From the NCBI GenBank assembly GCA_049976425.1, contig JBMFIG010000004.1, positions 26,503-90,502 on the forward strand: a stretch of 64,000 bases of DNA, read 5' to 3'. Below the pieces are notes generated by a model. That model worked only from the letters and a program-made list of their open reading frames with translations, was not told the DNA's origin and made no database searches. This document shows positions 7,385 through 33,276 of this stretch, one piece after another. The position numbers and the translations under genes are program-made. The stretch comes from Thermoproteus sp. (GTDB taxonomy: Archaea; Thermoproteota; Thermoprotei; Thermoproteales; Thermoproteaceae). Positions within the stretch are counted from its first letter, which is position 1; each line of letters starts with the position of its first letter.

Positions 7385-8529
7385 CTATAAAAATACGGGA
7401 ACTCCTCTGAACTCCTCCACAAAGGCCTTGATCGCCTTTTCGTCCACGGGCCTCTTCCTTGCGGCGTAGTCCTTGACGCGCCTCAAGATATAGTCGACGA
7501 GCTCTGGGCTGGGCTCCAGCCCCATCTGCTTCAAGGCCCACTCGACGGAGTGCCTCCCCGAGTGCTTCCCCAGCACTATCCTCCTCCTGTTCCCCACGGC
7601 CTCGGGCATCATGGGCTCGTAGGTGAAGGGGTTGTTGAGGACGCCGTGGACGTGGATGCCGGACTCGTGGCTGAAGGCGTTGTCGCCCACGACTGCTTTG
7701 TTGGGCTGTAGCTGGATCCCGAAGAGCCTAGCCACCAGCCGCGACGTCTCGTAGAGCCGCTCCATCCTAAGGCCGACCTCGCGGCCCAGCAGAAAGCGGG
7801 CGGCGGCGGCCACCTCCTCCAGCGCCGCGTTGCCGCCCCTCTCGCCGAACCCGTTGACAGTGACTTGGGCCACCTCGGCGCCCGCCTCTATCGCGGCGAT
7901 GGTGTTGGCCACCGCCATGCCGAAGTCGTCGTGGCAGTGCACGTGCATGGGGACCGGCGGGAGCTCGGCCTTGAGGTGCTCCACCAGATACCTCATCCTG
8001 CTGGGCGTCATCACGCCGACGGTGTCGGGCACGTTTATCTCGTCGGCGCCTGCCTCTATCGCCGTTCTGAACGCCTCGACGAGGAAGCCCAAATCGCTCC
8101 TGGTGGCGTCCTCGGCGCTGAAGAGAACCCTAACCCCTCTGGACTTGGCGTACTCCACAGACTCAGCGATCCTCCGCAACACCTCGTCCCGCGTCATCCT
8201 CAGCTTGTACTTCATGTGTATATCGCTCGTCGCTATGAAGACGTGGACCATGTCCACATCGGCGTCGACGGCGGCGTCTATGTCGGCCTTGTTGGCCCGC
8301 GCCAGGCTGGCCACCTCTGAATACGCCGCGTCCCGCGCTATTCTCCTCACCGCCTCGGCCTCCTCGGGCGACACGGCCGCGAAGCCGGCCTCTATATAGT
8401 CCACCTTTAGTTCGTCCAACGCCATGCCTATCTGGACCTTCTCTTCGACGGTCAGAGAGATGCCGGGCATCTGTTCGCCGTCTCTGAGGGTGGTGTCGAA
8501 GAACCTCACCCGGTGAGCCCCGAATCCAT
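7385..8529 (-). CDS. leuA: 2-isopropylmalate synthase lacking the C-terminal regulatory domain; proposed start ATG 8529 with a -1 frameshift at about 8521-8518 (in-frame GTG at 8509 is an alternative start)
   Basis: [23 protein letters not shown] and HESGIH motifs; Leu codon in the leader supports the Leu-pathway assignment. Confidence 0.85.
8506..8529 (-). promoter_or_regulatory. leuA leader ORF MDSGLTG* with slip site TCG-GGG-CTC(Leu)
   Basis: ATG GAT TCG GGG CTC ACC GGG TGA; TTTTATATA at 8555-8547; -1 frame reads [17 protein letters not shown]. Confidence 0.8.
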
Positions 8530-20101: not shown

Positions 20102-20989
20102 TTAGTAGACGGGGGTCAGCCAAGCTAGGTACTTCTCCTCCTTGCCCAGCACAATCCGCCTATACGTCTCGGCTATCTTCTGCGTTATGGGGCCCTTCTG
20201 CAACACCCTTCCGTCTATTTCTATTATCGGCGTGATCTCGGCGGCTGTCCCGACGAAGAACGCCTCGTCGGCCGCGTAGAGCTCCTCCCTCGTTATGCTC
20301 TTCTCCAGGAGCGGTATCCCCAGATCGCCCGCTATCGAGATGACCGTCTCCCTAGTTATGCCCTCGAGGATGCCGTCCTCCAGAGGAGGCGTCATGAGGA
20401 CCCCGCGGCGCACTATAAATATATTCTCGCCGGACCCCTCCACGACCTTGCCCTCGGCGTTCAGCATTATGGCCTCGTCGTATCCCCTGGCCCTCGCCTC
20501 GACGGCCGCCATTATGGAGTTGAGGTATATGCCGGTCGCCTTGGCCATGACGGGCATCATGGAGGTGTGGACCCTCCTCCAGCTCACCACGGCCGCCCTC
20601 ACGCCCTCGACCTTCAGGTACTTGCCGAAGGGTATAGCCGCTATGGCCACAGACGCCTGTAGCCCCCTAACGTCTAGGCTGATCTGGGGCTTGGATATGT
20701 ACGCCACCGGCCTTATGTAGAGGTCCTCCTTGAACCCGTTGGCCCTCACAGTCTCGACGACGGCCTTGGAGAGCTCCTCAGCCGTGTAGGGCACGTCGAG
20801 GCCTATTATCTTGGCGGATCTCAGAAGCCTCTCCATGTGGTCCCTCAGCCTGAAGACGTAGAGGTTCTCGCCGTTCCAGTAGGCCCGGATCCCCTCGAAC
20901 ACGCCGAAGCCGTAGTTGAGGCTCGGCGAGAGCACCGTCACCTTGGCCTCCTCCTCATCCACAAGCCTCCCGTCCAGCCAGACCTTCAT
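20102..20989 (-). CDS. ilvE: Branched-chain amino acid aminotransferase (fold type IV)
   Basis: [38 protein letters not shown] and GTAAEI. Confidence 0.95.
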
Positions 20990-21972
20990 CTCCCTCCGAA
21001 CATCAACCTCCTTATCTCCTCGCCGACCTTCTCGGCGGGATGTCCCCTAATCTCCTCGAGCATCCTCTTGAGGTTGGGCGCGCCTCTGGAGTACTCCTCG
21101 ACCCACTCCCGGGCGAACGACCCGTCTCTGACCCTGGCCGCCGCCTCCTTCATCCTCTGCTTCACTGAGTCGTCTATCACCTTGGGCCCGACGGTCAGCC
21201 CTCCGTATCTGGCCGTCTCGCTCACGCCGGTCAACATGCCGTAGAAGCCCCTCTGCCAGATGAGGTCCATGATGAGCTTGGCCTCGTTTATGGCCTCGAA
21301 ATACGCCACCTCGGGCTGGTAGCCCAGCTCCACCAACACCTCGAAGCCCTTCCTCAGAAGCTCCAGGAGGCCTCCGACGAGGACGTTCTGCTCCCCTATG
21401 AGGTCCGTCTCGGTCTCCTCCTTGAACGTCGTCTCTATCACGCCGGCTCTGGTGGCCCCTATGCCTTTGGCTATCGCCAAGGCGTACTCCATGGCCCTCC
21501 CCGAGTAGTTCTGGTGGACCGCGACCAAGGCGGGGACGCCGCGGCCCGCCAAGAACTCGTCGCGGACCAGCCGCCCCGGCCCCTTGGGCGCCACCATCAC
21601 TACGTCGACGTTGGCGGGCGGCTTTATCAAGCCGAAGTGTATGTTGAAGCCGTGTGCGAAGTCGACCACCGCGCCGGGCTTCAGATTGGGCTCTATCTGC
21701 TCGCGCCAGATCTTGGGCTGCTCCATGTCGGGCAGTAGGACCAGCAACACGTCCGCCCTCTTTACCGCCTCGCCCACCTCGTACACCTCGAACCCCTCCG
21801 CCTTGGCTTGGTCCCAGGACTTCCCCCTCCTGACGCCCACCACGACGTTCAGCCCCGAGTCTCTGAGGTTCAAGGCCTGCGCCCTTCCCTGGATACCGTA
21901 GCCGAGAACCGCTATGGTCTTGCCCTTGAGCGGCTCGAGGGAGGCGTCCTTGTCCGTATATATCCTCGCCAT
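20986..21972 (-). CDS. ilvC: Ketol-acid reductoisomerase
   Basis: [26 protein letters not shown] and [10 protein letters not shown]; own TATA-like box near 21998. Confidence 0.95.
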
Positions 21973-22000
21973 GGCCCTCAATAGGCTATGTTTTTAACAG

Positions 22001-22264
22001 TCATCGCCTCTCCCTCAACGCCACGGCCATCGCGGGCGCAGTCTGTAGCTTGCCTATCTCGAGGACCTCCGGCAGTTTGTCCAGCTTGGCCACCAGCCAG
22101 TTTATCTCGTCGGCCGGGCCCTCCACGTCCATAACTATGTGGTACGTCGAGTCCCTCGCCTCTATCTCCATGCGCCTCACGAACACCTTCGCCCTCCTCA
22201 CTATGCTGACGACCCTCCCGACGTAGTCCATCGAGGAGGGTATCCTTATGCTAATGGCGCTCAT
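22001..22264 (-). CDS. ilvN: ACT-domain acetolactate synthase small subunit
   Basis: 87 aa ACT-like protein (KLDKLPEV); overlaps the ilvB stop. Confidence 0.75.
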   Translation of the reverse strand: MSAISIRIPSSMDYVGRVVSIVRRAKVFVRRMEIEARDSTYHIVMDVEGPADEINWLVAKLDKLPEVLEIGKLQTAPAMAVALRERR

Positions 22265-24025
22265 ACCTCAACGACACGTCCTCCATCCCCTCGGGCAGAA
22301 TTGCTTGGGTTAGCCAATCGCCGGGCTTCACCCAAGGCAACACGATGTCCTTGTCCTCGTCTATGGTCACGTCTATCACTATAGGCTCGTTGTTCCTCAC
22401 AGCCCACGACACGGCCCTCTCCAGCTCCTCGTAGGTCGACGGCTTGACGCCCTCTATCCCGTAGGCCTCCGCTATCTTCAAGAAGTCGGGGTTCCTCGCG
22501 AACCTCACGGCGATCTGCCTATTGCCGTACATGTAGACCTGCCACTGCTTGACCAGCTGTAAGGACGCGTTGTCGAATATCACCTCGACAAAGGGCAGAT
22601 CGTACTCCCTCACCAGCGCGAGGTTGTTGAAGGTCATCTGGAACGACCCGTCGCCGTCTATACACACGACGGGCCTAGAGCGGTCGGCGAGCTTGGCGCC
22701 GAGAGCCGCAGGTATGCCGAAGCCCATCGTGCCCAGGCCGGCCGACGTTATGAAGGTCCCCGGCTCGTACACCTCCCACCAGATCTCCGACCACATCTGG
22801 TGTCCCCCCACGCCCGTCACGGTGACGGCGTTCGGCGGCGTGGCCCTCCTCACCGCCTTTAGCACCTTCCAGGGCGCGAAGTACTTGAACTTGCCGGCGG
22901 CCTTCTCCATGGCCTCTTCGTACCTCCTCCTGATCTCGTAAAGCCAGGCGAGGAACTTGGGGCTCCTCGCGGCGGCCGACGGCATTAGGTCCAGCATCTC
23001 CCTAAGAGCCTCCTTGGCGTCCGCTATTATGCCGACGGTGGGCTTCACGTTCTTCCCCACCTCGCTTCGGTCGATATCTATATGGATCAGCTTGACCTCG
23101 CCCGACCTAACCATCTCCTGGAGCTCCTTGAACCTCCCCCAAGTCCTGTCGCTGAACCTGGTCCCCACGGCCACCACCACGTCGGCGTTTGCCAAAGCCG
23201 CGTCCGCCTCGGCCCTCCCGTGCATCCCGGCCGGCCCCATATACAGCGGGTGGTTGTGGGGGATGGCGGCCTTCCCGGGCAAGGTCGACACGATGGGCGC
23301 ATTGAGCCTCTCGGCGAGCTCCAGCACCTCCTTGGTGGCGCCCGACCACAACACTCCGCCTCCCGCCAGCACCACCGGCCTCTCCGCCTCCAAGATCATC
23401 TTGACGGCCTTCGCCACGTCCTCCTCCCTGGGCTTGGGAGGTATGAACTTTGCCGCGTTTATCTGTATCTTGGCCTCGCCCCTATACTCCATCAGCTGGA
23501 GATCCCTCGGCAGATCCACCAAGGTCGGTCCGGGCCTCCCCAGCATCGAGATCTCGTAGGCGATCTTGACGGCGGCCGTGGCCTCCTCCGGCCTCTTCAC
23601 CTGGTACACCCACTTGGTTATAGGCGTCGCCACCCCCAATATGTCGGTCTCCTGGAACCCATCCCTCCCGAACACCCACGTGGCTACCTGCCCCGTTATC
23701 GCCGCGACGGGCACCGAGTCCATGTAGGCGTCGGTCAAGCCAGTCACCAAGTTCGTGGCGCCGGGGCCGCTCGTAGCGGCCACCACGGCGGGCCTCCCCG
23801 CTACTCTGGCGTAGCCCTCGGCTGCGTGCACGGCGCCCTGCTCGTGGCGGAACATGACCACCTCTATGTCGTCTACGAAATACGCCGCGTCGAATAGGGC
23901 CATTATAGAGCCGCCCGTTATTCCGAGGATGTGCCTTACCTTGAGCTCCCTAAGCGTGTCGATTATTCTGTCGACGACTCTATTGGGGCGATCCCCTCGA
24001 GCCCCGAAGCGACCCCCGAATCCAT
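22251..24025 (-). CDS. ilvB: Acetolactate synthase large subunit; proposed start ATG 24025 with a -1 frameshift in the leader
   Basis: [32 protein letters not shown] and DGDGSF; the only in-frame start (TTG 24032) lies upstream of the expected transcription start. Confidence 0.92.
23963..24025 (-). promoter_or_regulatory. ilvB leader [23 protein letters not shown] with three slip sites G-GGG-GTC(Val), G-GGG-CTC(Leu), G-GGG-ATC(Ile)
   Basis: ATG GAT TCG GGG GTC GCT TCG GGG CTC GAG GGG ATC ... TAA; TTTAAATA at 24052-24045. Confidence 0.85.
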
Positions 24026-24128
24026 ACGGCAACTATTTAACCTATATTTAAAGATTGTCTTCCTACATAAAAGGCGGAGGAGGCGCCGTACGAGCGGAAT
24101 GCTTAAAAGCTATATAGATACCTGCGCC

Positions 24129-24617
24129 ATGGAGATAAGAGGTCGGGCACTGGTCTACGGCGATAAGATAGACACCGATATAATCATACCGGCCCGCTAT
24201 CTGGTATACACCGACCCCAAGATCTTGGGCGAACACGCCATGGAGCCTCTGGACCCCGACTTCCCCAAGAAGGCCAAAGGCGCCATACTGGTGGCCGGCA
24301 GGGCCTTCGGGATGGGCAGCAGCCGCGAGCAGGCGGCGACGGCCCTCAAGGGCGCCGGCGTCTTAGCCGTCGTGGCCGAGTCCTTCGCCCGCATATTCTT
24401 CCGCAACGCCGTCAACGTAGGCCTTCCCGTCCTTCAAGCCCCCGCCAGGAGCAGAGTGAGAGAGGGCGACGAGCTCCTCGTGAGGCTGGACGCGGGCGAG
24501 GTGGTGAACCTCACCACTGGCGAGGTCATCAAGGGGAAGCCGCTCTCCGGCTTGGTCCTCGACATAATAAAAGCGGGCGGCCTCGTGGAGTACCTAAAGG
24601 CCAGGCCCCGTATATAG
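24129..24617 (+). CDS. leuD: 3-isopropylmalate dehydratase/homoaconitase small subunit
   Basis: [38 protein letters not shown] and GGL. Confidence 0.92.
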
Positions 24618-24666
24618 AGCGAATATAGTCGGCGCTAGGCTTAAATATCCCGCGGCCTCTGCCGCC

Positions 24667-24687
24667 ATGCGTTCGGGGAAAACGTAA
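24667..24687 (+). promoter_or_regulatory. Homocitrate synthase leader ORF MRSGKT* with slip site TCG-GGG-AAA(Lys)
   Basis: ATG CGT TCG GGG AAA ACG TAA; CTTAAATA at 24640-24647; -1 frame reads GENVKILDSTLREGEQ. Confidence 0.85.
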
Positions 24688-26060
24688 AGATCCTCGACTC
24701 GACGCTGAGGGAAGGCGAGCAGACCCCCGGCGTCGTCTTCTCCGAAGATTGGAGGATTAGGATCGCCAAGGCCCTCTCAGATGCCGGCGTCCACATGATA
24801 GAGGTGGGCGATCCCAACGTGGCGCCCGACATAAGGTCGGCCATAGCGAAGATAGTGGCCATGAAGAGAGACGGCGAGATAGCCGGCGAGATCGTGGCCC
24901 ACAGCAGATCGGTCAAGGCAGATATAGAGAACGCCGCGTCGCTCGAGCCCGACAGGGTGGCTATATTCTACGGCGTGAGCGACATACACTTGAAGCACAA
25001 GCACAGGAAGTCGAGGGAGGAGGCCCTGTCCATAATTGCGGAGCACGTGGAGTTCGCGAGGAGCCACGGAGTGCGCGTGAGGTTCACTGCCGAGGACGCC
25101 ACGCGGGCCGACCCCGACTACTTAATACAGGTGGTCAAGACGGCGAGGGATGCGGGAGCCGACAGGGTGAGCATCGCCGACACCGTGGGTATCTTGACGC
25201 CCGAGAAGGCGCGGCGGCTGTTCGCCGAGGTCAAGGAGGCCGTGCCCGACGTGGGGCTCGACATACACGCCCACAACGACCTCGGCATGGCGGTGGCCAA
25301 CTCCTTGGCGGCCGTCGAGGGGGGAGCCGACGTGGTCCACACGACGGTGAACGGCCTCGGCGAGAGGGCAGGGATAACGCCGCTCCAGACGTTCGCCGCG
25401 GCGTACTACTACCACAGGGGGGTGAAGCTGATAGATCTGACTAAGTTGCCCTACCTGGCCTCCTTGGTGGAGGCGGCCAGCGGCATAGCGCAGATGCCCA
25501 CGTTCCCCGTGACCGGCGACAACGCCTTCACGCACAAGGCCGGGGTCCACCAGGCCGGCGTGTTGGCGAGCCCCGAGACCTACGAGCCGTTCCCTCCCGA
25601 GGTGGTGGGCCGCACGAGGGACTTCTCGTTGGACAAATACAGCGGGAGGAAGGCCGTCGCCCACAGGCTCGAGAGGCTCGGCGTCAAGGTCGACGAGGAG
25701 GTCTTGGGGAAGCTCGTGGAGGAGCTGAAGTCCACCAACGCGCGGAGGCTACGCGACGAGGATCTCCTCGAGATGTTGGAGAAGATAACCGGGATGAGGT
25801 ACAGGGCGCAGGTCAACAAGCACATAGAGGCGTACGTCTGGGTGAAAGTCGACGAGAACGTCTACACGACGTCGGTGGCCAGGAGGATCATGGCGATAAG
25901 GGGCGTGACCGGCGTCGGCGAGGTGACGGGCGAGTTCGACATAGTGGCCAAGATATCGGCCGAGAACGCCGAGGAGCTGAACAGGATAATCGAGGAGGTG
26001 AGGGCCGTCAAGGGCGTCAAGTCGACGCTCACCAATATAGTCCTGAAACAGCTTTCATAA
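24667..26060 (+). CDS. Homocitrate synthase with C-terminal Lrp/AsnC (RAM) domain; start ATG 24667 requires a -1 frameshift at 24675-24678
   Basis: DSTLREGEQ motif lies upstream of the first in-frame ATG (24795); HAHNDLG, GLGERAG and HKAGVH; C-terminal VTGEFDIVAKI RAM domain as in Sulfolobus HCS. Confidence 0.88.
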
Positions 26061-28936: not shown

Positions 28937-30159
28937 TTATTTCTTATCCATAGATCTTTTACTTAACGCCGTCAAGCTATGTAGCGACCACATCTCTATG
29001 AACCCCCTCGCCTCCTCGTCGGTCGGGTACCACCCCTTGGAGTAGTCCGCCAGCTCCTTGCTGTAGGTGCCGTATTTGGAGTCCCTGGCGACTATCTGCA
29101 CAGATCCCTTGTAGAGCTTCGCCTTCACCCACCCGTCGACCCACCTCTCCATCTCGCCGGCGGCCGCCTCGATGGCGAGCCTGAGCGGCTCCACCCACAG
29201 CCCCTGGTAGACTAGGTCTGCCCAGTAGGGGTCGAGGACGTTGTGCTTGAACCTGAGCTCCCTCGGCGTGAGGACCAGCTTCTCGAGATCCCTATGCGAC
29301 TCGAAGAGTATGACCGCGGCGGGGGCCTCGTACACCTCTCTGCTCTTGAAGCCCACCAGCCTGCTCTCGATGTGGTCTATCCTCCCGACCCCCGCGGCTC
29401 CGCCTATCTGGTTAAGCGCCTTCACGAGGGAGAGCATGTCCATGCGCTCGCCGTTGATAGCCCTAGGCAGGCCCCCCTCGAACTCTATCTCCACGTAGGT
29501 TGGCTGGTCGGGCGCCTTCTCGGGCTGGACGGTCCACTTGAAGGCGTCCTCGGGCGGCTCGAGCCTCTGGTCGTCGACGGGCCCTCCCTCTATGGAGCGG
29601 CTCCAGAGGTTCTCGTCTATGCTGTACTTCTTGTGGGCCTCCGGCACAGGTATGCCGTGCTTCTTGGCGTACTCGATCTCCTGCTCCCTGCCCATGCCCC
29701 AAACCCTCGCGGGGGCCAACACCTCCAAGTCGGGCGCAAGGGCCTTTGCGGTGACGTCGAAACGGACCTGGTCGTTTCCCTTGCTGGTGCTCCCGTGGGC
29801 TATGGCGTCAGCCCCCTCGCGCCTCGCCACCTCGACGGTCTTCGCGACAATCAGCGGCCTGGCCAACGCAGTGCCTAGGGGGTACTTCCCCTCGTACATG
29901 GCGTTCATGAGGACGGCCCTGCCGACGTACTCCTCGGCGAATTCCCTCTTGGCGTCTATGGTGTAGTGCTTGACCGCGCCGGCCTTATAGGCCCTCGCCT
30001 CGACCTCCGAGAAGTCCTCCTCCTGCCCTACGTCGACCGTGACCGTGATAACCTCGGCGTTGTACTTCTCCGAGAGCCACTTGATGGCGACCGTGGTGTC
30101 GAGCCCGCCCGAGTAGGCGAGCGCGATCCTGCTTATTCTCGCCCCGACTTACTCGCCAT
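28937..30159 (-). CDS. argG: Argininosuccinate synthase; proposed start ATG 30159 with a -1 frameshift at about 30145-30142
   Basis: N-terminal LAYSGGLDT motif is in frame but has no ATG/GTG/TTG before it; YPLGTALARP, HGSTSKGNDQVRF and KSREVYEAP. Confidence 0.92.
30133..30159 (-). promoter_or_regulatory. argG leader ORF MASKSGRE* with slip site TCG-GGG-CGA(Arg)
   Basis: ATG GCG AGT AAG TCG GGG CGA GAA TAA; ATG overlaps the lysW 3' end after a purine-rich tract; -1 frame reads GARISRIALAYSGGLDT. Confidence 0.85.
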
Positions 30160-31444: not shown

Positions 31445-32224
31445 CTACCCGACCACGTGGGTCCCCGCGCCGTTGAGGGCAACATCTATGGGGGCCTCCA
31501 CCAAGCCGCTGGATATTATCACCTCGATCCCGGCCTTGGCGGCCTCTGCGGCCATCAACAGCTTCCTCTTCATGCCGCCTTTGACCTCCTCGTTCTGGAC
31601 AAGCCGCTCCGCCTCTTCGGCCGTGAGGCGCGGCACCACCCTCCCGCCGATATAGAGGCCCTCGACGTCGCTGAGGAGCACCAGCTTCTCGGCGCCTGTC
31701 CTTTTGGCCACGTCGAACGCCAGCTGGTCGCCGTCTATGTTCAGGAGCTCGCCCCTCTCCGACACGGCGATGGGGGCCAGCACCCTCAACGGCGGCGGCG
31801 CCAGCTTGGAGGCGTCTATCTCTGTTATACGGCCCACGTAGCCCCCGTCCACGACCCTCTGCCTCCCCCTCTCGTCGACCACCAGCACCTTCTCCTTGCG
31901 CTTGGCCCTCACCACGCCTAGATCGGCCCCGGTTAGGCCCAGCGCCGGCACGCCCATGCCGTGTAGCGAGGCGACTATGGACTTGTTTATCCAGCTCATG
32001 GCCATGACGAAGGCCTTTAAGGTCTCCCAGTCCGTGTAGCGGCTTACGAGCCCGCCGGGGTGCGTGAGGAATTTCGGCTCTATCCCCATCCTCTTCATCA
32101 ACTCGTTGACAAGACACCCCCCGCCGTGGACCACGACCGCCTTGTCGGCGTATTTGGGCAGGTTGCGGATCGCCATCGAGGCGTCCTTGCAGATAACGGA
32201 TCCTCCTATCTTGATCACGATCAT
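31445..32224 (-). CDS. lysZ: [LysW]-aminoadipate/[LysW]-glutamate kinase
   Basis: [32 protein letters not shown] and GGMKRKL. Confidence 0.92.
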
Positions 32225-33276
32225 ATGGGGTGGGGAGGTATGTACCTAAGCCCTTGATCCTCGGGGAACCCCGCCGCTATGTTGAACGCCTGCACGGCCT
32301 GCCCGGCGGCCCCGCGCACCAAGTTGTCTATGGCCGAGAACGCGACGACCCTCCTCATCCTGGGATCTATCTCGAAGCCCACGTCGACTATGTTGGTGCC
32401 CAGTACATATTTTATATTTGGATAGCGCGCTAGGCCCAGCTTGTCCTTCACGATCCTCACGAACTTCGAGTCGCCGTACATGGCCCTATACGCCTTCCAC
32501 AACGTCGGCTCGTCCACGTCGCGTTCGGTGAACACGTGCGCCGTGGAGAGTATGCCCCTCACGGCGTCGACGGCGTGCGGCGTGTAGGCCACCCTCACCT
32601 CCCTCCCCGCAAGCCGCGAGAGCTCCTGCTCCACCTCCGCCGCGTGTCTGTGGTGAACCGGCTCGTAGGGCCTTATGACGTAGGTGCGGTGGCTGTGCAT
32701 GTCGAGGACCGACCCCTCGGCCCCGGCGCCTGAGGAGCCCATCTTCACGTCGATTACCGGCGGGAGGGGGCCTAGAAGCCCGTATTTGGCCAGAGGCGCG
32801 AGCGCCATTATGGATGCAGTGGCGGTGCACCCGGGAGACGCTATGAGCTTGGCGCCGGGTAGCTCGTCCTTGTGCAGTTCGGGGAGGCCGTAAACCGCCT
32901 TCTTCAAGAGATCGGGGTAGGGATGCGGCTGCGGCCACTTATACCACTCCACGTAGGCGTTGGGATCCTTCAGCCTGAAGTCGGCCGACAGGTCGACCAC
33001 CATGAGGCCGTGCTCGTACAGCTGGGGGACCCACTTGACCGACTCGCCGTGGGGAAGCGCCAGGAAGACCACGTCGGCCTTCAACGCGGCGTCGATGCTG
33101 GGCTCCACGAACTTGAGGTTTGTGAATCCCCTGAGGTTTGGGTGGATCCTGTAGACGTACTCCCCCTTGAACTTCCTAGAGGTGGCGCAGACTATCTCGA
33201 CCCCTCCGTGCTGTAGCAAGATGCGCAACAGCTCTCCGCCGGTGAATCCGGAGGCCCCCACTACGCAAGCCTTCAT
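32221..33276 (-). CDS. lysY: [LysW]-aminoadipyl/glutamyl-phosphate reductase (ArgC family)
   Basis: [34 protein letters not shown] and [12 protein letters not shown]. Confidence 0.93.

What the first reader, a model, noticed from the sequence alone, without database searches (positions are those of the whole stretch)
23963..24025. ilvB leader is a three-input OR gate for Val, Leu and Ile
SEEN: ATG GAT TCG GGG GTC GCT TCG GGG CTC GAG GGG ATC ... TAA ([12 protein letters not shown]). The three G-GGG sites are followed by exactly the three branched-chain amino acids whose synthesis needs acetolactate synthase. The -1 frame is open from all three sites into [12 protein letters not shown] (product about 591 aa). 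A single sequencing error cannot create this arrangement. INFERENCE: shortage of any one of the three switches on IlvB and the overlapping ilvN, paralleling multivalent attenuation of bacterial ilv operons.
Basis: partly seen in the sequence, partly recalled or inferred. Interest (0 to 1): 0.93.

Follow-up and report, generated by a model that had tools for sequence, protein, structure and literature searches.

The report
Amino-acid-sensing frameshift leader of ilvB
The acetolactate synthase gene of this hot-spring archaeon can apparently be read only if the ribosome slips back one base at G-GGG sites that sit just before a valine, a leucine and an isoleucine codon, and the same trick is found on about eighteen other amino-acid genes of the genome, which points to a previously undescribed way of sensing amino-acid shortage.

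Summary
On the minus strand, ATG 24025 opens a 20-codon frame with three G_GGG sites followed by GTC (Val), CTC (Leu) and ATC (Ile). ilvB lies in the -1 frame, open from before the ATG.

The TATA box is 27 nt upstream of this ATG, the modal leaderless spacing in this genome. TTG 24032 is only 20 nt from it.

In 25 of 25 Thermoproteaceae ilvB loci (Thermoproteus, Pyrobaculum, a third genus):
- The out-of-frame ATG is kept.
- The Val and Leu sites are kept, with synonymous third-base changes.
- The Ile site is kept in 14 of 25.
- 19 of 25 have no ATG/GTG/TTG in the ilvB frame.

The same design, with a cognate codon after G_GGG, precedes leuA (Leu), cimA (Ile), homocitrate synthase and lysX (Lys), thrC (Thr), argG and carA (Arg), trpE/trpB2 (Trp), pheA (Phe), and IleRS, TrpRS and CysRS.

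Best reading: a hungry-codon, P-site tRNA-Gly -1 slip acts as an amino-acid sensor. Eight literature searches found no description of it.

The parts
24045..24052 (-). TATA box TTTAAATA of the ilvB-ilvN-ilvC promoter
   Evidence: invariant in the alignment of 17 orthologous leaders. The hexamer starts 27 nt before ATG 24025, inside the genome-wide leaderless peak of -28 to -25.
23963..24025 (-). Leader (sensor) ORF of 20 codons plus TAA, starting at the predicted leaderless ATG 24025-24023
   Evidence: An ATG in this frame, 27-30 nt after the TATA box where the scan found one (24 of 25; L009's CTTAAATA missed the pattern), is present in 25 of 25 family orthologs. Leader length is 9-20 codons.
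24011..24017 (-). Slip site 1: G_GGG followed by GTC (Val sensor codon)
   Evidence: Conserved in 25 of 25 orthologs (24 G_GGG, 1 G_GGA), with GTC, GTT or GTA following.
23999..24005 (-). Slip site 2: G_GGG followed by CTC (Leu sensor codon)
   Evidence: Conserved in 25 of 25 orthologs, with CTC (20) or CTT (5) following.
23990..23996 (-). Slip site 3: G_GGG followed by ATC (Ile sensor codon)
   Evidence: Present in 14 of 25 orthologs: 9 of 9 Thermoproteus and 5 of 16 others.
22251..24017 (-). ilvB reading frame (-1 relative to the leader), from the first slip site to the stop; biosynthetic acetolactate synthase large subunit
   Evidence: TIGR00118 scores 594.6 bits against a cut-off of 538.35, and the profile match starts at residue 22 of the TTG-ORF.
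24030..24032 (-). In-frame TTG that a gene caller would take as the ilvB start; probably upstream of the transcript
   Evidence: It lies 20 nt from the TATA hexamer, a spacing seen in 3 of 840 ORF starts. A TTG at this place is present in only 2 of 9 Thermoproteus loci, this genome and its 98%-identical relative.
22001..22264 (-). ilvN-like small (regulatory) subunit; overlaps the end of ilvB by 14 nt
   Evidence: Pfam ACT_5 PF13710 scores 47.6 bits. There was no NCBIfam hit at 1e-10.
20986..21981 (-). ilvC, ketol-acid reductoisomerase, on the same strand downstream
   Evidence: TIGR00465 scores 408.1 bits against a cut-off of 226.

Best explanation
ilvB (with ilvN and ilvC behind it) is transcribed as a leaderless mRNA that begins at or next to ATG 24025. 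Ribosomes start there, in a frame that is +1 relative to ilvB, and read a short sensor ORF.

At each of three G_GGG sites, peptidyl-tRNA-Gly sits in the P site while the A site shows a Val (GUC), Leu (CUC) or Ile (AUC) codon.
- If the matching aminoacyl-tRNA is plentiful, the codon is read. The ribosome moves on and finally terminates at TAA 23965-23963, and no IlvB is made.
- If the tRNA is scarce, the A site stays empty. tRNA-Gly re-pairs one base back (GGG to GGG), and the ribosome continues in the ilvB frame to make a 591-aa enzyme.

The three sites in series act as an OR gate for the three end products of the pathway. The device is one member of a family-wide set of such sensors in Thermoproteaceae.

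Shown here:
- The anatomy and the promoter spacing.
- The lack of a conserved in-frame start.
- Nucleotide-level conservation.
- The match between sensor codon and pathway.

Inferred:
- The transcription start.
- The slip itself and its P-site mechanism.
- Its dependence on aminoacyl-tRNA supply.
For: 1. Promoter spacing. The TATA hexamer lies 27 nt before the ATG, in the genome's sharp peak of -28 to -25 (135 of 840 ORFs). TTG 24032 lies at -20 (3 of 840).

2. Orthologs. In 25 of 25 ilvB loci of the family (Thermoproteus, Pyrobaculum, a third genus; IlvB identity down to about 61-65%):
- The ATG is in the +1 frame, and lies 27-30 nt from the TATA box in the 24 loci where the scan matched one.
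- The ilvB frame is open from before that ATG.
- 19 of 25 have no ATG/GTG/TTG in the ilvB frame.

3. Sensor sites. G_GGG/A followed by Val and G_GGG followed by Leu occur in 25 of 25, and Ile in 14 of 25. Third bases vary synonymously in the leader frame (GTC/GTT/GTA, CTC/CTT, ATC/ATT), while the ilvB-frame residues over the same bases vary. In an alignment of 17 leaders, the invariant islands are the TATA box, TCGGGGGT and TCGGGGCT, against 57% mean column identity.

4. Regulon scan. A scan blind to gene identity (TATA, ATG, short ORF, in-frame G_GGG, -1 frame open for at least 150 codons) found 24 leaders. Controls with other tetramers or the +1 frame found 0-10.
- NCBIfam identified 14 of the -1 ORFs as amino-acid biosynthesis genes or aminoacyl-tRNA synthetases.
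- In 14 of 14 the codon after G_GGG is cognate: thrC Thr; leuA Leu; cimA Ile; homocitrate synthase and lysX Lys; trpE, trpB2 and TrpRS Trp; IleRS Ile; CysRS and a CysK/M-like enzyme Cys; pheA Phe; carA Arg; transketolase N-subunit Tyr+Trp.
- Added later: aroD-chorismate mutase Tyr and argG Arg.

5. Conservation in the family:
- leuA 28 of 28.
- cimA 24 of 24.
- Homocitrate synthase 28 of 28.
- thrC 23 of 25, with many Pyrobaculum adding an Ile site.
- Head gene of the lysY/lysZ operon 27 of 27, with Lys-Pro-Arg in Thermoproteus and the order permuted to Pro-Lys-Arg in Pyrobaculum.

6. Structure and known RNAs. There is no conserved stable structure after the sites at 85 C: the minimum free energy is 0.0 in 9 of 25 and never below -4.5 kcal/mol. 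There is no Rfam match. This fits one-tRNA 'hungry' slippage, which the review PMC8211752 (passages read) describes as independent of stimulatory elements.

7. Assembly check. The G runs are the same in an independent contig of a metagenome run, with 0 indels. That run may be the source sample.
Against: - There is no experimental support of any kind. No RNA run holds the stretch, so the transcription start, the absence of RNA-level G insertion, and the shifted protein are all untested.
- G_GGG is not avoided in codons 2-12 of 214 ordinary leaderless-type genes (9.35 per 1000 codons, against 8.4-9.35 further in). The TCG-GGG codon pair is not depleted (observed/expected 1.08). Nothing in codon usage therefore shows that the tetramer is intrinsically shifty, and a starvation-induced slip would also hit ordinary genes.
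- The Val and Leu sensor codons of this genome (GTC 0.40, CTC 0.36 of their families) are common codons, unlike the Lys AAA, Arg CGA, Pro CCA and Thr ACA sensors.
- This genome does have an in-frame TTG 7 nt upstream of the ATG. A minor upstream transcription start cannot be excluded.
- ValRS and LeuRS have no such leader.
- Pyrobaculum IleRS keeps an in-frame ATG 7 nt upstream of the out-of-frame one, so not every member must depend on slippage.
- A tRNA-Gly(CCC) gene could not be confirmed. ARAGORN finds only 15-28 tRNAs in this intron-rich genome, and none is a credible Gly.
Confidence: 0.78

Rival explanations
1. The -1 shift from the leaderless ATG is required but constitutive. It sets a fixed low translation rate of ilvB, and the following codons are not sensors.
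For: - The need for a shift follows from the missing in-frame start in 19 of 25 orthologs.
- Nothing measured here shows a response to amino acids.
- GTC and CTC are common codons in this genome.
Against: - It does not explain why the codon after G_GGG is cognate to the gene's pathway in 14 of 14 identified genes of the blind scan.
- It does not explain why that codon stays cognate through synonymous change and through permutation of the site order (Lys-Pro-Arg versus Pro-Lys-Arg).
Confidence: 0.08
2. Ordinary gene: in this strain ilvB starts at TTG 24032 and is translated without any recoding. The out-of-frame ATG and the G runs are incidental.
For: - The TTG-ORF is intact and 593 aa long.
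- A TTG or GTG occurs 7-10 nt upstream of the ATG in 6 of 25 orthologs.
Against: - The TTG lies 20 nt from the TATA hexamer, a spacing found in 3 of 840 ORF starts.
- No TATA-like box lies about 27 nt upstream of it.
- 7 of 9 loci of the same genus lack any in-frame start, yet keep the ATG and the sites.
Confidence: 0.05
3. Transcriptional slippage: RNA polymerase adds one G in a G4-G5 run, which puts the ATG in frame with ilvB at the RNA level.
For: - One extra G in any of the three runs would give the same products.
- No RNA data were available to exclude it.
Against: - The runs are short (4-5 G).
- The model gives no role to the codon after the run, which is cognate in 14 of 14 genes and conserved across the family.
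- Sites with only G4 (Leu, Ile and the single-site leaders) are as conserved as the G5 site.
Confidence: 0.04
4. Assembly or sequencing error, or a pseudogene: one G was lost from a G6 run and the gene is really ATG-initiated in frame.
For: A single G insertion in the first run would restore an in-frame ATG.
Against: - The same frame offset is found in 25 of 25 loci, several from single-contig genomes.
- A Logan contig at depth 16.8 shows 0 indels.
- The pattern is present once per genome in 26 of 28 other family genomes.
Confidence: 0.01

Closest known systems
Leader-peptide transcription attenuation of bacterial ilv operons (E. coli ilvBN: Val and Leu; ilvGMEDA: Leu, Val, Ile; thr operon: Thr and Ile). 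Recalled from textbook knowledge; no paper was read here.
   Same: - A short ORF translated ahead of the structural genes carries codons for exactly the end products of the pathway.
- Ribosome progress at those codons reports charged-tRNA supply.
- Control is multivalent. Even the thrC leader here adds Ile to Thr in Pyrobaculum, as the E. coli thr leader does.
   Different: - There is no terminator/antiterminator RNA. The one terminator-like hit in 23800-24300 lies upstream of the ilvB promoter, not between leader and gene, and no conserved fold was found.
- There is one sensor codon per amino acid instead of runs.
- The leader overlaps the structural gene, which has no start codon of its own.
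- The output is a change of reading frame, not transcription read-through.
Leftward (-1) frameshifting at hungry codons in starved E. coli (Gallant and Lindsley 1992, as cited in review PMC8211752; passages read)
   Same: [quoted passage not shown]
- It is triggered by aminoacyl-tRNA limitation.
- It is independent of downstream stimulatory structure.
   Different: There it is an error seen in laboratory constructs under starvation. Here the arrangement is conserved, is placed at the start of biosynthetic and synthetase genes, and is required for their expression.
RF2 (prfB) autoregulatory +1 frameshift (cited in PMC6028130, passage read; mechanism recalled)
   Same: - An empty A site lets the P-site tRNA slip into the frame that encodes the full protein. 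In RF2 the A-site codon is a stop codon waiting for RF2.
- Supply of the decoding factor sets expression by negative feedback, as proposed here for IleRS, TrpRS and CysRS.
   Different: - The direction is +1, not -1.
- It needs an internal Shine-Dalgarno stimulator.
- It senses a release factor, not amino acids.
- It involves a single gene, not a regulon.
Saccharolobus solfataricus fucA1 -1 programmed frameshift. Review PMC8211752 calls it the only -1 PRF reported in Archaea.
   Same: An archaeal gene whose full product needs a -1 ribosomal shift.
   Different: fucA1 joins two long ORFs at an internal slippery heptamer. It has no amino-acid sensor codon, no 5'-terminal position and no regulon.
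Start-codon-associated ribosomal frameshifting (SCARF) in human cells (bioRxiv 10.1101/2023.02.15.528768; abstract read)
   Same: Frame change within the first codons, increased by amino-acid starvation.
   Different: It is eukaryotic and pervasive 'noise', controlled through eIF5B degradation. It has no dedicated slip site, no cognate sensor codon and no dependence of a specific enzyme on the shift.

Membership tests
Canonical -1 programmed ribosomal frameshift signal | Slippery heptamer X_XXY_YYZ that allows both the P-site and A-site tRNAs to re-pair | tested here: not met
   Only the tetramer G_GGG is conserved. The A-site codons (GTC, CTC, ATC and, elsewhere, AAA, ACA, TGG and others) cannot re-pair in the -1 frame.
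Canonical -1 programmed ribosomal frameshift signal | Downstream stimulatory hairpin or pseudoknot 5-9 nt after the site | tested here: not met
   Folding of the first 80 nt of 25 orthologous mRNAs at 85 C gave a minimum free energy of 0.0 in 9 of 25 and never below -4.5 kcal/mol. No shared structure was found.
Canonical -1 programmed ribosomal frameshift signal | Two overlapping ORFs in a 0/-1 relation, conserved among relatives | tested here: met
   25 of 25 family orthologs.
Hungry-codon one-tRNA (P-site) -1 slippage | P-site codon allows full re-pairing one base upstream | tested here: met
   G_GGG occurs at all three sites of the window, and G_GGG/A at the Val and Leu sites of 25 of 25 orthologs.
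Hungry-codon one-tRNA (P-site) -1 slippage | Shift depends on shortage of the aminoacyl-tRNA for the A-site codon | not testable with these tools
   There is indirect support only. The A-site codon is cognate to the gene's pathway in 14 of 14 identified genes of a blind scan.
Leader-peptide transcription attenuator | Leader ORF carrying codons of the regulating amino acids | tested here: met
   [12 protein letters not shown]... has Val, Leu and Ile each placed right after a G_GGG.
Leader-peptide transcription attenuator | Alternative hairpins ending in an intrinsic terminator between the leader and a structural gene that has its own start | tested here: not met
   The leader overlaps ilvB. The one terminator-like hit in 23800-24300 is at 24193-24174, upstream of the promoter. 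19 of 25 orthologs have no in-frame start.
T-box or other curated cis-regulatory RNA | Match to an Rfam covariance model | tested here: not met
   0 matches at E <= 1 in window 23800-24800, both strands.
Biosynthetic acetolactate synthase large subunit (IlvB) | Score above the curated cut-off of the equivalog model | tested here: met
   TIGR00118 scores 594.6 bits against a cut-off of 538.35.

The most novel reading that the evidence does not exclude
Thermoproteaceae (Thermoproteus, Pyrobaculum and kin) use a family-wide translational regulon. At least 18 amino-acid biosynthesis and aminoacyl-tRNA synthetase genes or operons have no usable start in their own frame. They are entered only by a -1 slip of tRNA-Gly on G_GGG when the next codon, cognate to the pathway's product, is starved.

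This would be an archaeal functional counterpart of attenuators and T-boxes, built from a frameshift. It allows multi-input gates: Val/Leu/Ile on ilvB, Lys/Pro/Arg on the lysY/lysZ operon, Thr/Ile on thrC.
Probability: 0.72. Interest if true: 0.95.

Novelty: categorically new. Interest (0 to 1): 0.93.

Why it matters
No leader-peptide attenuation or T-box-like system is known in Archaea, and how crenarchaea match amino-acid synthesis to demand is largely open.

If the reading is right:
- A whole family solves the problem at the ribosome. One tetranucleotide plus one sensor codon is enough, and the device can be combined into logic gates.
- The only published archaeal -1 frameshift (fucA1) would become one of dozens.
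- 'Hungry-codon' slippage would change from a laboratory error into a selected regulatory mechanism.
- It would explain why gene callers give these genes odd, non-conserved or missing starts.
- It would offer a minimal, portable amino-acid sensor for synthetic biology in thermophiles.

The claim is directly testable in cultivable Thermoproteus and Pyrobaculum strains.

Tried and rejected
**RNA evidence.** The look-up of sequencing runs listed no RNA holder. It listed one DNA metagenome run holding 0.90 of the words and a second run of the same study holding next to none. Read laying on the first run gave one contig with 0 indels and 2 substitutions. This may be the window's own source, so it only shows that the G runs are not an assembler artefact.

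**Stimulatory RNA structure.** None is conserved.

**Rfam.** Nothing was found.

**Sigma-70 and terminator scan.** It is not informative for an archaeon. It gave 0 promoter-like sites and 1 terminator-like site, upstream of the promoter.

**Selection against the motif.** I looked for selection against G_GGG or TCG-GGG in ordinary genes, as a sign of intrinsic slipperiness, and found none.

**tRNA-Gly(CCC) gene.** ARAGORN with and without intron options gave 43, 15 and 28 tRNAs, with either no Gly or Gly calls with implausible kilobase introns. This remains undetermined.

**Shine-Dalgarno reading.** I considered that GGGG is a Shine-Dalgarno-like box for a downstream in-frame start. I rejected it for two reasons:
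- Most orthologs have no such start (19 of 25 ilvB loci; leuA, cimA and homocitrate synthase).
- It gives no role to the cognate codon.

**Termination-reinitiation.** I considered reinitiation at the leader stop. An overlapping GTGA exists in only 5 of 28 leuA leaders, and stalling at the sensor would then lower expression, not raise it.

**Quadruplet decoding.** It would shift +1, not -1.

**ValRS and LeuRS.** Neither has a leader.

**Wider scan.** A scan without the TATA filter gave 25 candidate groups. Most are GC-rich shadow frames. argG was the one clear addition. A candidate in front of a 348-codon ORF (C3, ATG GGG CCG) was not followed up.

**Not run.** The search for homologous proteins, the search of protein representatives, the structure tools and the protein-atlas search were not used. 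I therefore did not check how public annotations start these genes.

**Literature.** Eight full-text searches found no description of frameshift leaders in Thermoproteus or Pyrobaculum.
- Two reviews were searched by term (PMC8211752 and PMC5009743, the latter only its first 300,000 characters). Neither mentions either genus.
- The library lacks most subscription-journal papers, and supplements were closed, so 'not in print' is limited to these searches.
Full report
**1. What is in the window**

On the minus strand, the intergenic region between ilvB and a divergent LeuD/HacB-type small subunit gene (ATG 24129, plus strand) contains three elements:
- A TATA box, TTTAAATA, at 24052-24045.
- An in-frame TTG at 24032.
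- An ATG at 24025.

The ATG frame reads ATG GAT TCG GGG GTC GCT TCG GGG CTC GAG GGG ATC ... TAA (23965-23963), which translates as [20 protein letters not shown].

The long ORF (TTG 24032 to 22251, 593 aa) is the -1 frame of this leader.
- It is a biosynthetic acetolactate synthase large subunit. TIGR00118 scores 594.6 bits against a cut-off of 538.35, and the profile match starts at residue 22.
- It is followed by an ACT-domain small subunit at 22001-22264, which overlaps ilvB by 14 nt (PF13710, 47.6 bits).
- Next comes ilvC at 20986-21981.

A -1 shift at any of the three G_GGG sites gives a 591-aa protein.

**2. Where translation probably starts**

In this genome, the hexamer TT[TA]A[TA]A starts 25-28 nt before the first ATG of 135 of 840 long ORFs. 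It is almost absent at other distances and before internal control ATGs. This is the signature of leaderless transcription. Leaderless transcription was first described in Pyrobaculum aerophilum (Slupska et al. 2001, as cited in PMC6028130; passage read).
- ATG 24025 sits at -27, in the peak.
- TTG 24032 sits at -20 (3 of 840), and no other TATA-like box serves it.

The transcription start itself is inferred, not shown.

**3. Relatives**

A search of 41 related genomes with IlvB gave 25 loci from the window's family, this genome included. Named records show the genera are Thermoproteus and Pyrobaculum; a third genus is unnamed here.

In all 25 loci:
- An ATG lies in the +1 frame relative to ilvB. 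It is 27-30 nt after the TATA box in the 24 loci where the scan matched one; L009 has CTTAAATA, which the pattern missed.
- The ilvB frame is open from upstream of that ATG.

In 19 of 25 there is no ATG, GTG or TTG in the ilvB frame between the upstream stop and the conserved domain. In the other 6, this window among them, the in-frame start lies 7-10 nt upstream of the ATG (one locus has a further one at 40 nt), which is too close to the TATA box.

Leader frames:
- G_GGG (G_GGA once) followed by Val: 25 of 25. The codon is GTC in 7, GTT in 2 and GTA in 16.
- G_GGG followed by Leu: 25 of 25. The codon is CTC in 20 and CTT in 5.
- A third G_GGG/A followed by Ile: 14 of 25 (all 9 Thermoproteus, 5 of 16 others).
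- One Pyrobaculum locus has a second Val instead.

The spacers between sites differ in length (0, 1 or 4 codons) and in sequence. The ilvB-frame residues across the region also differ: [27 protein letters not shown] and so on.

In an alignment of 17 leaders, the invariant islands are the TATA box, TCGGGGGT and TCGGGGCT, against a mean column identity of 57%.

The two-octamer pattern:
- Occurs in 26 of 28 other genomes of the family. The two misses are a variant, CCGGGAGTA..., and a 61%-complete genome.
- Occurs in 0 of 31 and 0 of 2 genomes of the sister families.
- Occurs in 2 of 58 genomes of the rest of the class.
- The reversed control pattern gives 3 hits in 120 genomes.

The five sister-family ilvB loci I read have an ordinary in-frame GTG or ATG start and no such leader.

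Selection therefore acts on the nucleotides G_GGG and on the identity of the next codon in the leader frame, not on the IlvB N-terminus.

**4. The same device elsewhere in the genome**

I scanned the whole assembly for this combination: a TATA-like box, an ATG, a leader of at most 45 codons, an in-frame G_GGG, and a -1 frame open for at least 150 codons. Gene identity was not used.

It found 24 leaders (29 sites). Controls with CCCC, AAAA or TTTT, or with the +1 frame, found 0-10.

I scanned 18 of the -1 ORFs with NCBIfam. Fourteen are amino-acid biosynthesis enzymes or aminoacyl-tRNA synthetases, and in 14 of 14 the codon after G_GGG is cognate:

| Gene | Sensor codon(s) | Amino acid |
|---|---|---|
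| Threonine synthase | ACA | Thr |
| 2-isopropylmalate synthase | CTC | Leu |
| Citramalate synthase | ATC | Ile |
| Homocitrate synthase | AAA | Lys |
| LysX | AAA | Lys |
| Anthranilate synthase I | TGG | Trp |
| TrpB2 | TGG | Trp |
| TrpRS | TGG | Trp |
| IleRS | ATT | Ile |
| CysRS | TGT | Cys |
| CysK/M-like enzyme | TGC | Cys |
| Prephenate dehydratase | TTC | Phe |
| CarA | CGA | Arg |
| Transketolase N-subunit | TAC and TGG | Tyr, Trp |

The other four scanned ORFs:
- One is a 224-aa protein of no family. It heads the lysY/argC-lysZ/argB operon and carries three sites, followed by Lys, Pro and Arg codons.
- Three look like chance: RNase Z, a macro-domain protein and one with no family.
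- Four further hits were not scanned and look like GC-rich shadow frames.

Later scans added two more:
- AroD-chorismate mutase, behind ATG GGG TAC TGA.
- argG, behind a mini-ORF that overlaps the end of lysW and is preceded by GGAGG rather than a TATA box: ATG GCG AGT AAG TCG GGG CGA GAA TAA.

carB shows a variant. A uORF, ATG TCG GCG GGG CGA ATA TAG, has a -1 frame that runs to just past carB's own ATG.

ValRS and LeuRS have no leader.

**5. Conservation of these other leaders in the family**

| Gene | Loci with the cognate site | Notes |
|---|---|---|
| leuA | 28 of 28 | TCG/ACG GGG CTC |
| cimA | 24 of 24 | G_GGG ATT/ATC |
| Homocitrate synthase | 28 of 28 with an intact 5' end | G_GGG AAA |
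| thrC | 23 of 25 | TCG GGG ACA/ACG; many Pyrobaculum add G_GGG ATT (Ile) in front |
| Head gene of the lysY/lysZ operon | 27 of 27 in Thermoproteus and Pyrobaculum | See below |
| IleRS | All 8 Thermoproteus loci | See below |

For the head gene of the lysY/lysZ operon:
- The order is Lys-Pro-Arg in 9 of 9 Thermoproteus loci.
- It is Pro-Lys-Arg in 16 of 18 Pyrobaculum loci.
- The codon before GGG varies freely apart from its final G.

For IleRS:
- Most Pyrobaculum loci have ATG GGG ATT/ATC in the +1 frame.
- They also keep an in-frame ATG 7 nt upstream.
- The sister family has none.

Two features argue that the amino-acid identity of the sensor codon is what is selected. Sites are permuted while their identity is kept. 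Specificity follows the branch: the shared enzyme IlvB carries Val+Leu(+Ile), leuA carries Leu only and cimA carries Ile only.

**6. Mechanism**

The simplest model is one-tRNA slippage. With GGG in the P site and the sensor codon unread in the A site, tRNA-Gly re-pairs with the GGG one base upstream. The new A-site codon is always GNN.
- No conserved structure follows the sites.
- No Rfam family matches.
- This is what the review PMC8211752 describes for 'hungry' -1 shifts.

Several sensors use the rarest codon of their family in this genome:
- AAA, 0.16.
- CGA, 0.06.
- CCA, 0.07.
- ACA, 0.10.
- ATT/ATC is used, and never the common ATA.

GTC (0.40) and CTC (0.36) are common.

For synthetases, the design gives negative feedback through charging of their own tRNA.

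**7. What speaks against it, and what is missing**

- Nothing here is experimental. No RNA run holds the stretch.
- G_GGG is as frequent in codons 2-12 of 214 ordinary leaderless-type genes as later in them, and TCG-GGG is not depleted. Codon usage therefore gives no sign that the tetramer is dangerous.
- I could not confirm the tRNA-Gly(CCC) gene.
- This strain's TTG, and the upstream in-frame ATG of Pyrobaculum IleRS, leave room for some shift-independent expression.
- The argG sensor is operon-internal, so a 5'-terminal position is not essential.

**8. Rivals**

- A plain TTG start fails on promoter spacing and on the lack of conservation.
- Transcriptional slippage and a constitutive shift both fail to explain the cognate codons.

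**9. Comparison with what is known**

The device works like bacterial multivalent attenuation in what it senses, and like hungry-codon or RF2-type slippage in how the frame changes. It is a member of neither family:
- It has no terminator.
- It has no heptamer.
- It has no stimulator.
- The structural gene has no start of its own.

The 2021 review of archaeal recoding lists a single -1 frameshift in Archaea, fucA1. The 2016 frameshifting review mentions neither Pyrobaculum nor Thermoproteus in the 300,000 of its 449,034 characters that are held. Eight full-text searches found nothing on this. The library lacks most subscription-journal papers, and supplements were closed.

**10. Verdict**

- The finding is best seen as one gate of a family-wide frameshift regulon that appears to be undescribed.

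Noticed in passing
window 24667-24687 (+), gene to 26060: Homocitrate synthase (TIGR02146, 514.5 bits) has no start in its own frame. It is preceded by a leaderless-type mini-ORF, ATG CGT TCG GGG AAA ACG TAA, whose TATA box lies 25-26 nt upstream. G_GGG followed by AAA (Lys) is conserved in 28 of 28 family orthologs with an intact 5' end.
   Followed up: yes
window 8506-8529 (-), gene to 7388: 2-isopropylmalate synthase lies behind ATG GAT TCG GGG CTC ACC GGG TGA. G_GGG followed by CTC (Leu) is conserved in 28 of 28 family orthologs.
   Followed up: yes
window 33958 (-) leader ATG; ORF to 33273; then 32221-33276 and 31445-32224 (-): A 224-aa protein with no Pfam or NCBIfam family heads the lysY/argC and lysZ/argB operon. 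Its leader has three G_GGG sites followed by AAA (Lys), CCA (Pro) and CGA (Arg). The order is Lys-Pro-Arg in Thermoproteus and Pro-Lys-Arg in Pyrobaculum. The protein's function is unknown.
   Followed up: partly
window 30133-30159 (-), argG frame 28937-30145 (-): argG has no canonical start after the lysW stop. A mini-ORF, ATG GCG AGT AAG TCG GGG CGA GAA TAA, overlaps the end of lysW and is preceded by GGAGG, not by a TATA box. It puts an Arg sensor in front of the -1 frame. This is an operon-internal version of the device. Relatives were not checked.
   Followed up: partly
G000 contig C34, about 542-640 (L126): Upstream of carB there is a uORF, ATG TCG GCG GGG CGA ATA TAG. Its -1 frame runs on and stops a few codons past carB's own in-frame ATG. 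This may be a coupling variant, in which the shift delivers ribosomes to a normal start.
   Followed up: no
L057-L067 (Pyrobaculum IleRS loci): Two ATGs lie 7 nt apart and both are conserved. The upstream one is in frame with IleRS. The downstream one (ATG GGG ATT/ATC) is out of frame and sits at the leaderless distance from the TATA box. This suggests basal plus inducible expression of an essential gene.
   Followed up: no
G000 contigs C1:282236 and C22:13584 (L179, L180): ValRS and LeuRS lack any frameshift leader, and LeuRS has a plain leaderless in-frame ATG. Among the synthetases I looked at, only IleRS, TrpRS and CysRS carry the device.
   Followed up: partly
whole genome G000: ARAGORN finds only 15 tRNAs without introns, 28 with introns of up to 130 nt allowed, and 43 with unlimited intron length. 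No credible tRNA-Gly is among them. The tRNA genes here are evidently intron-rich or split, and they need a dedicated search.
   Followed up: no
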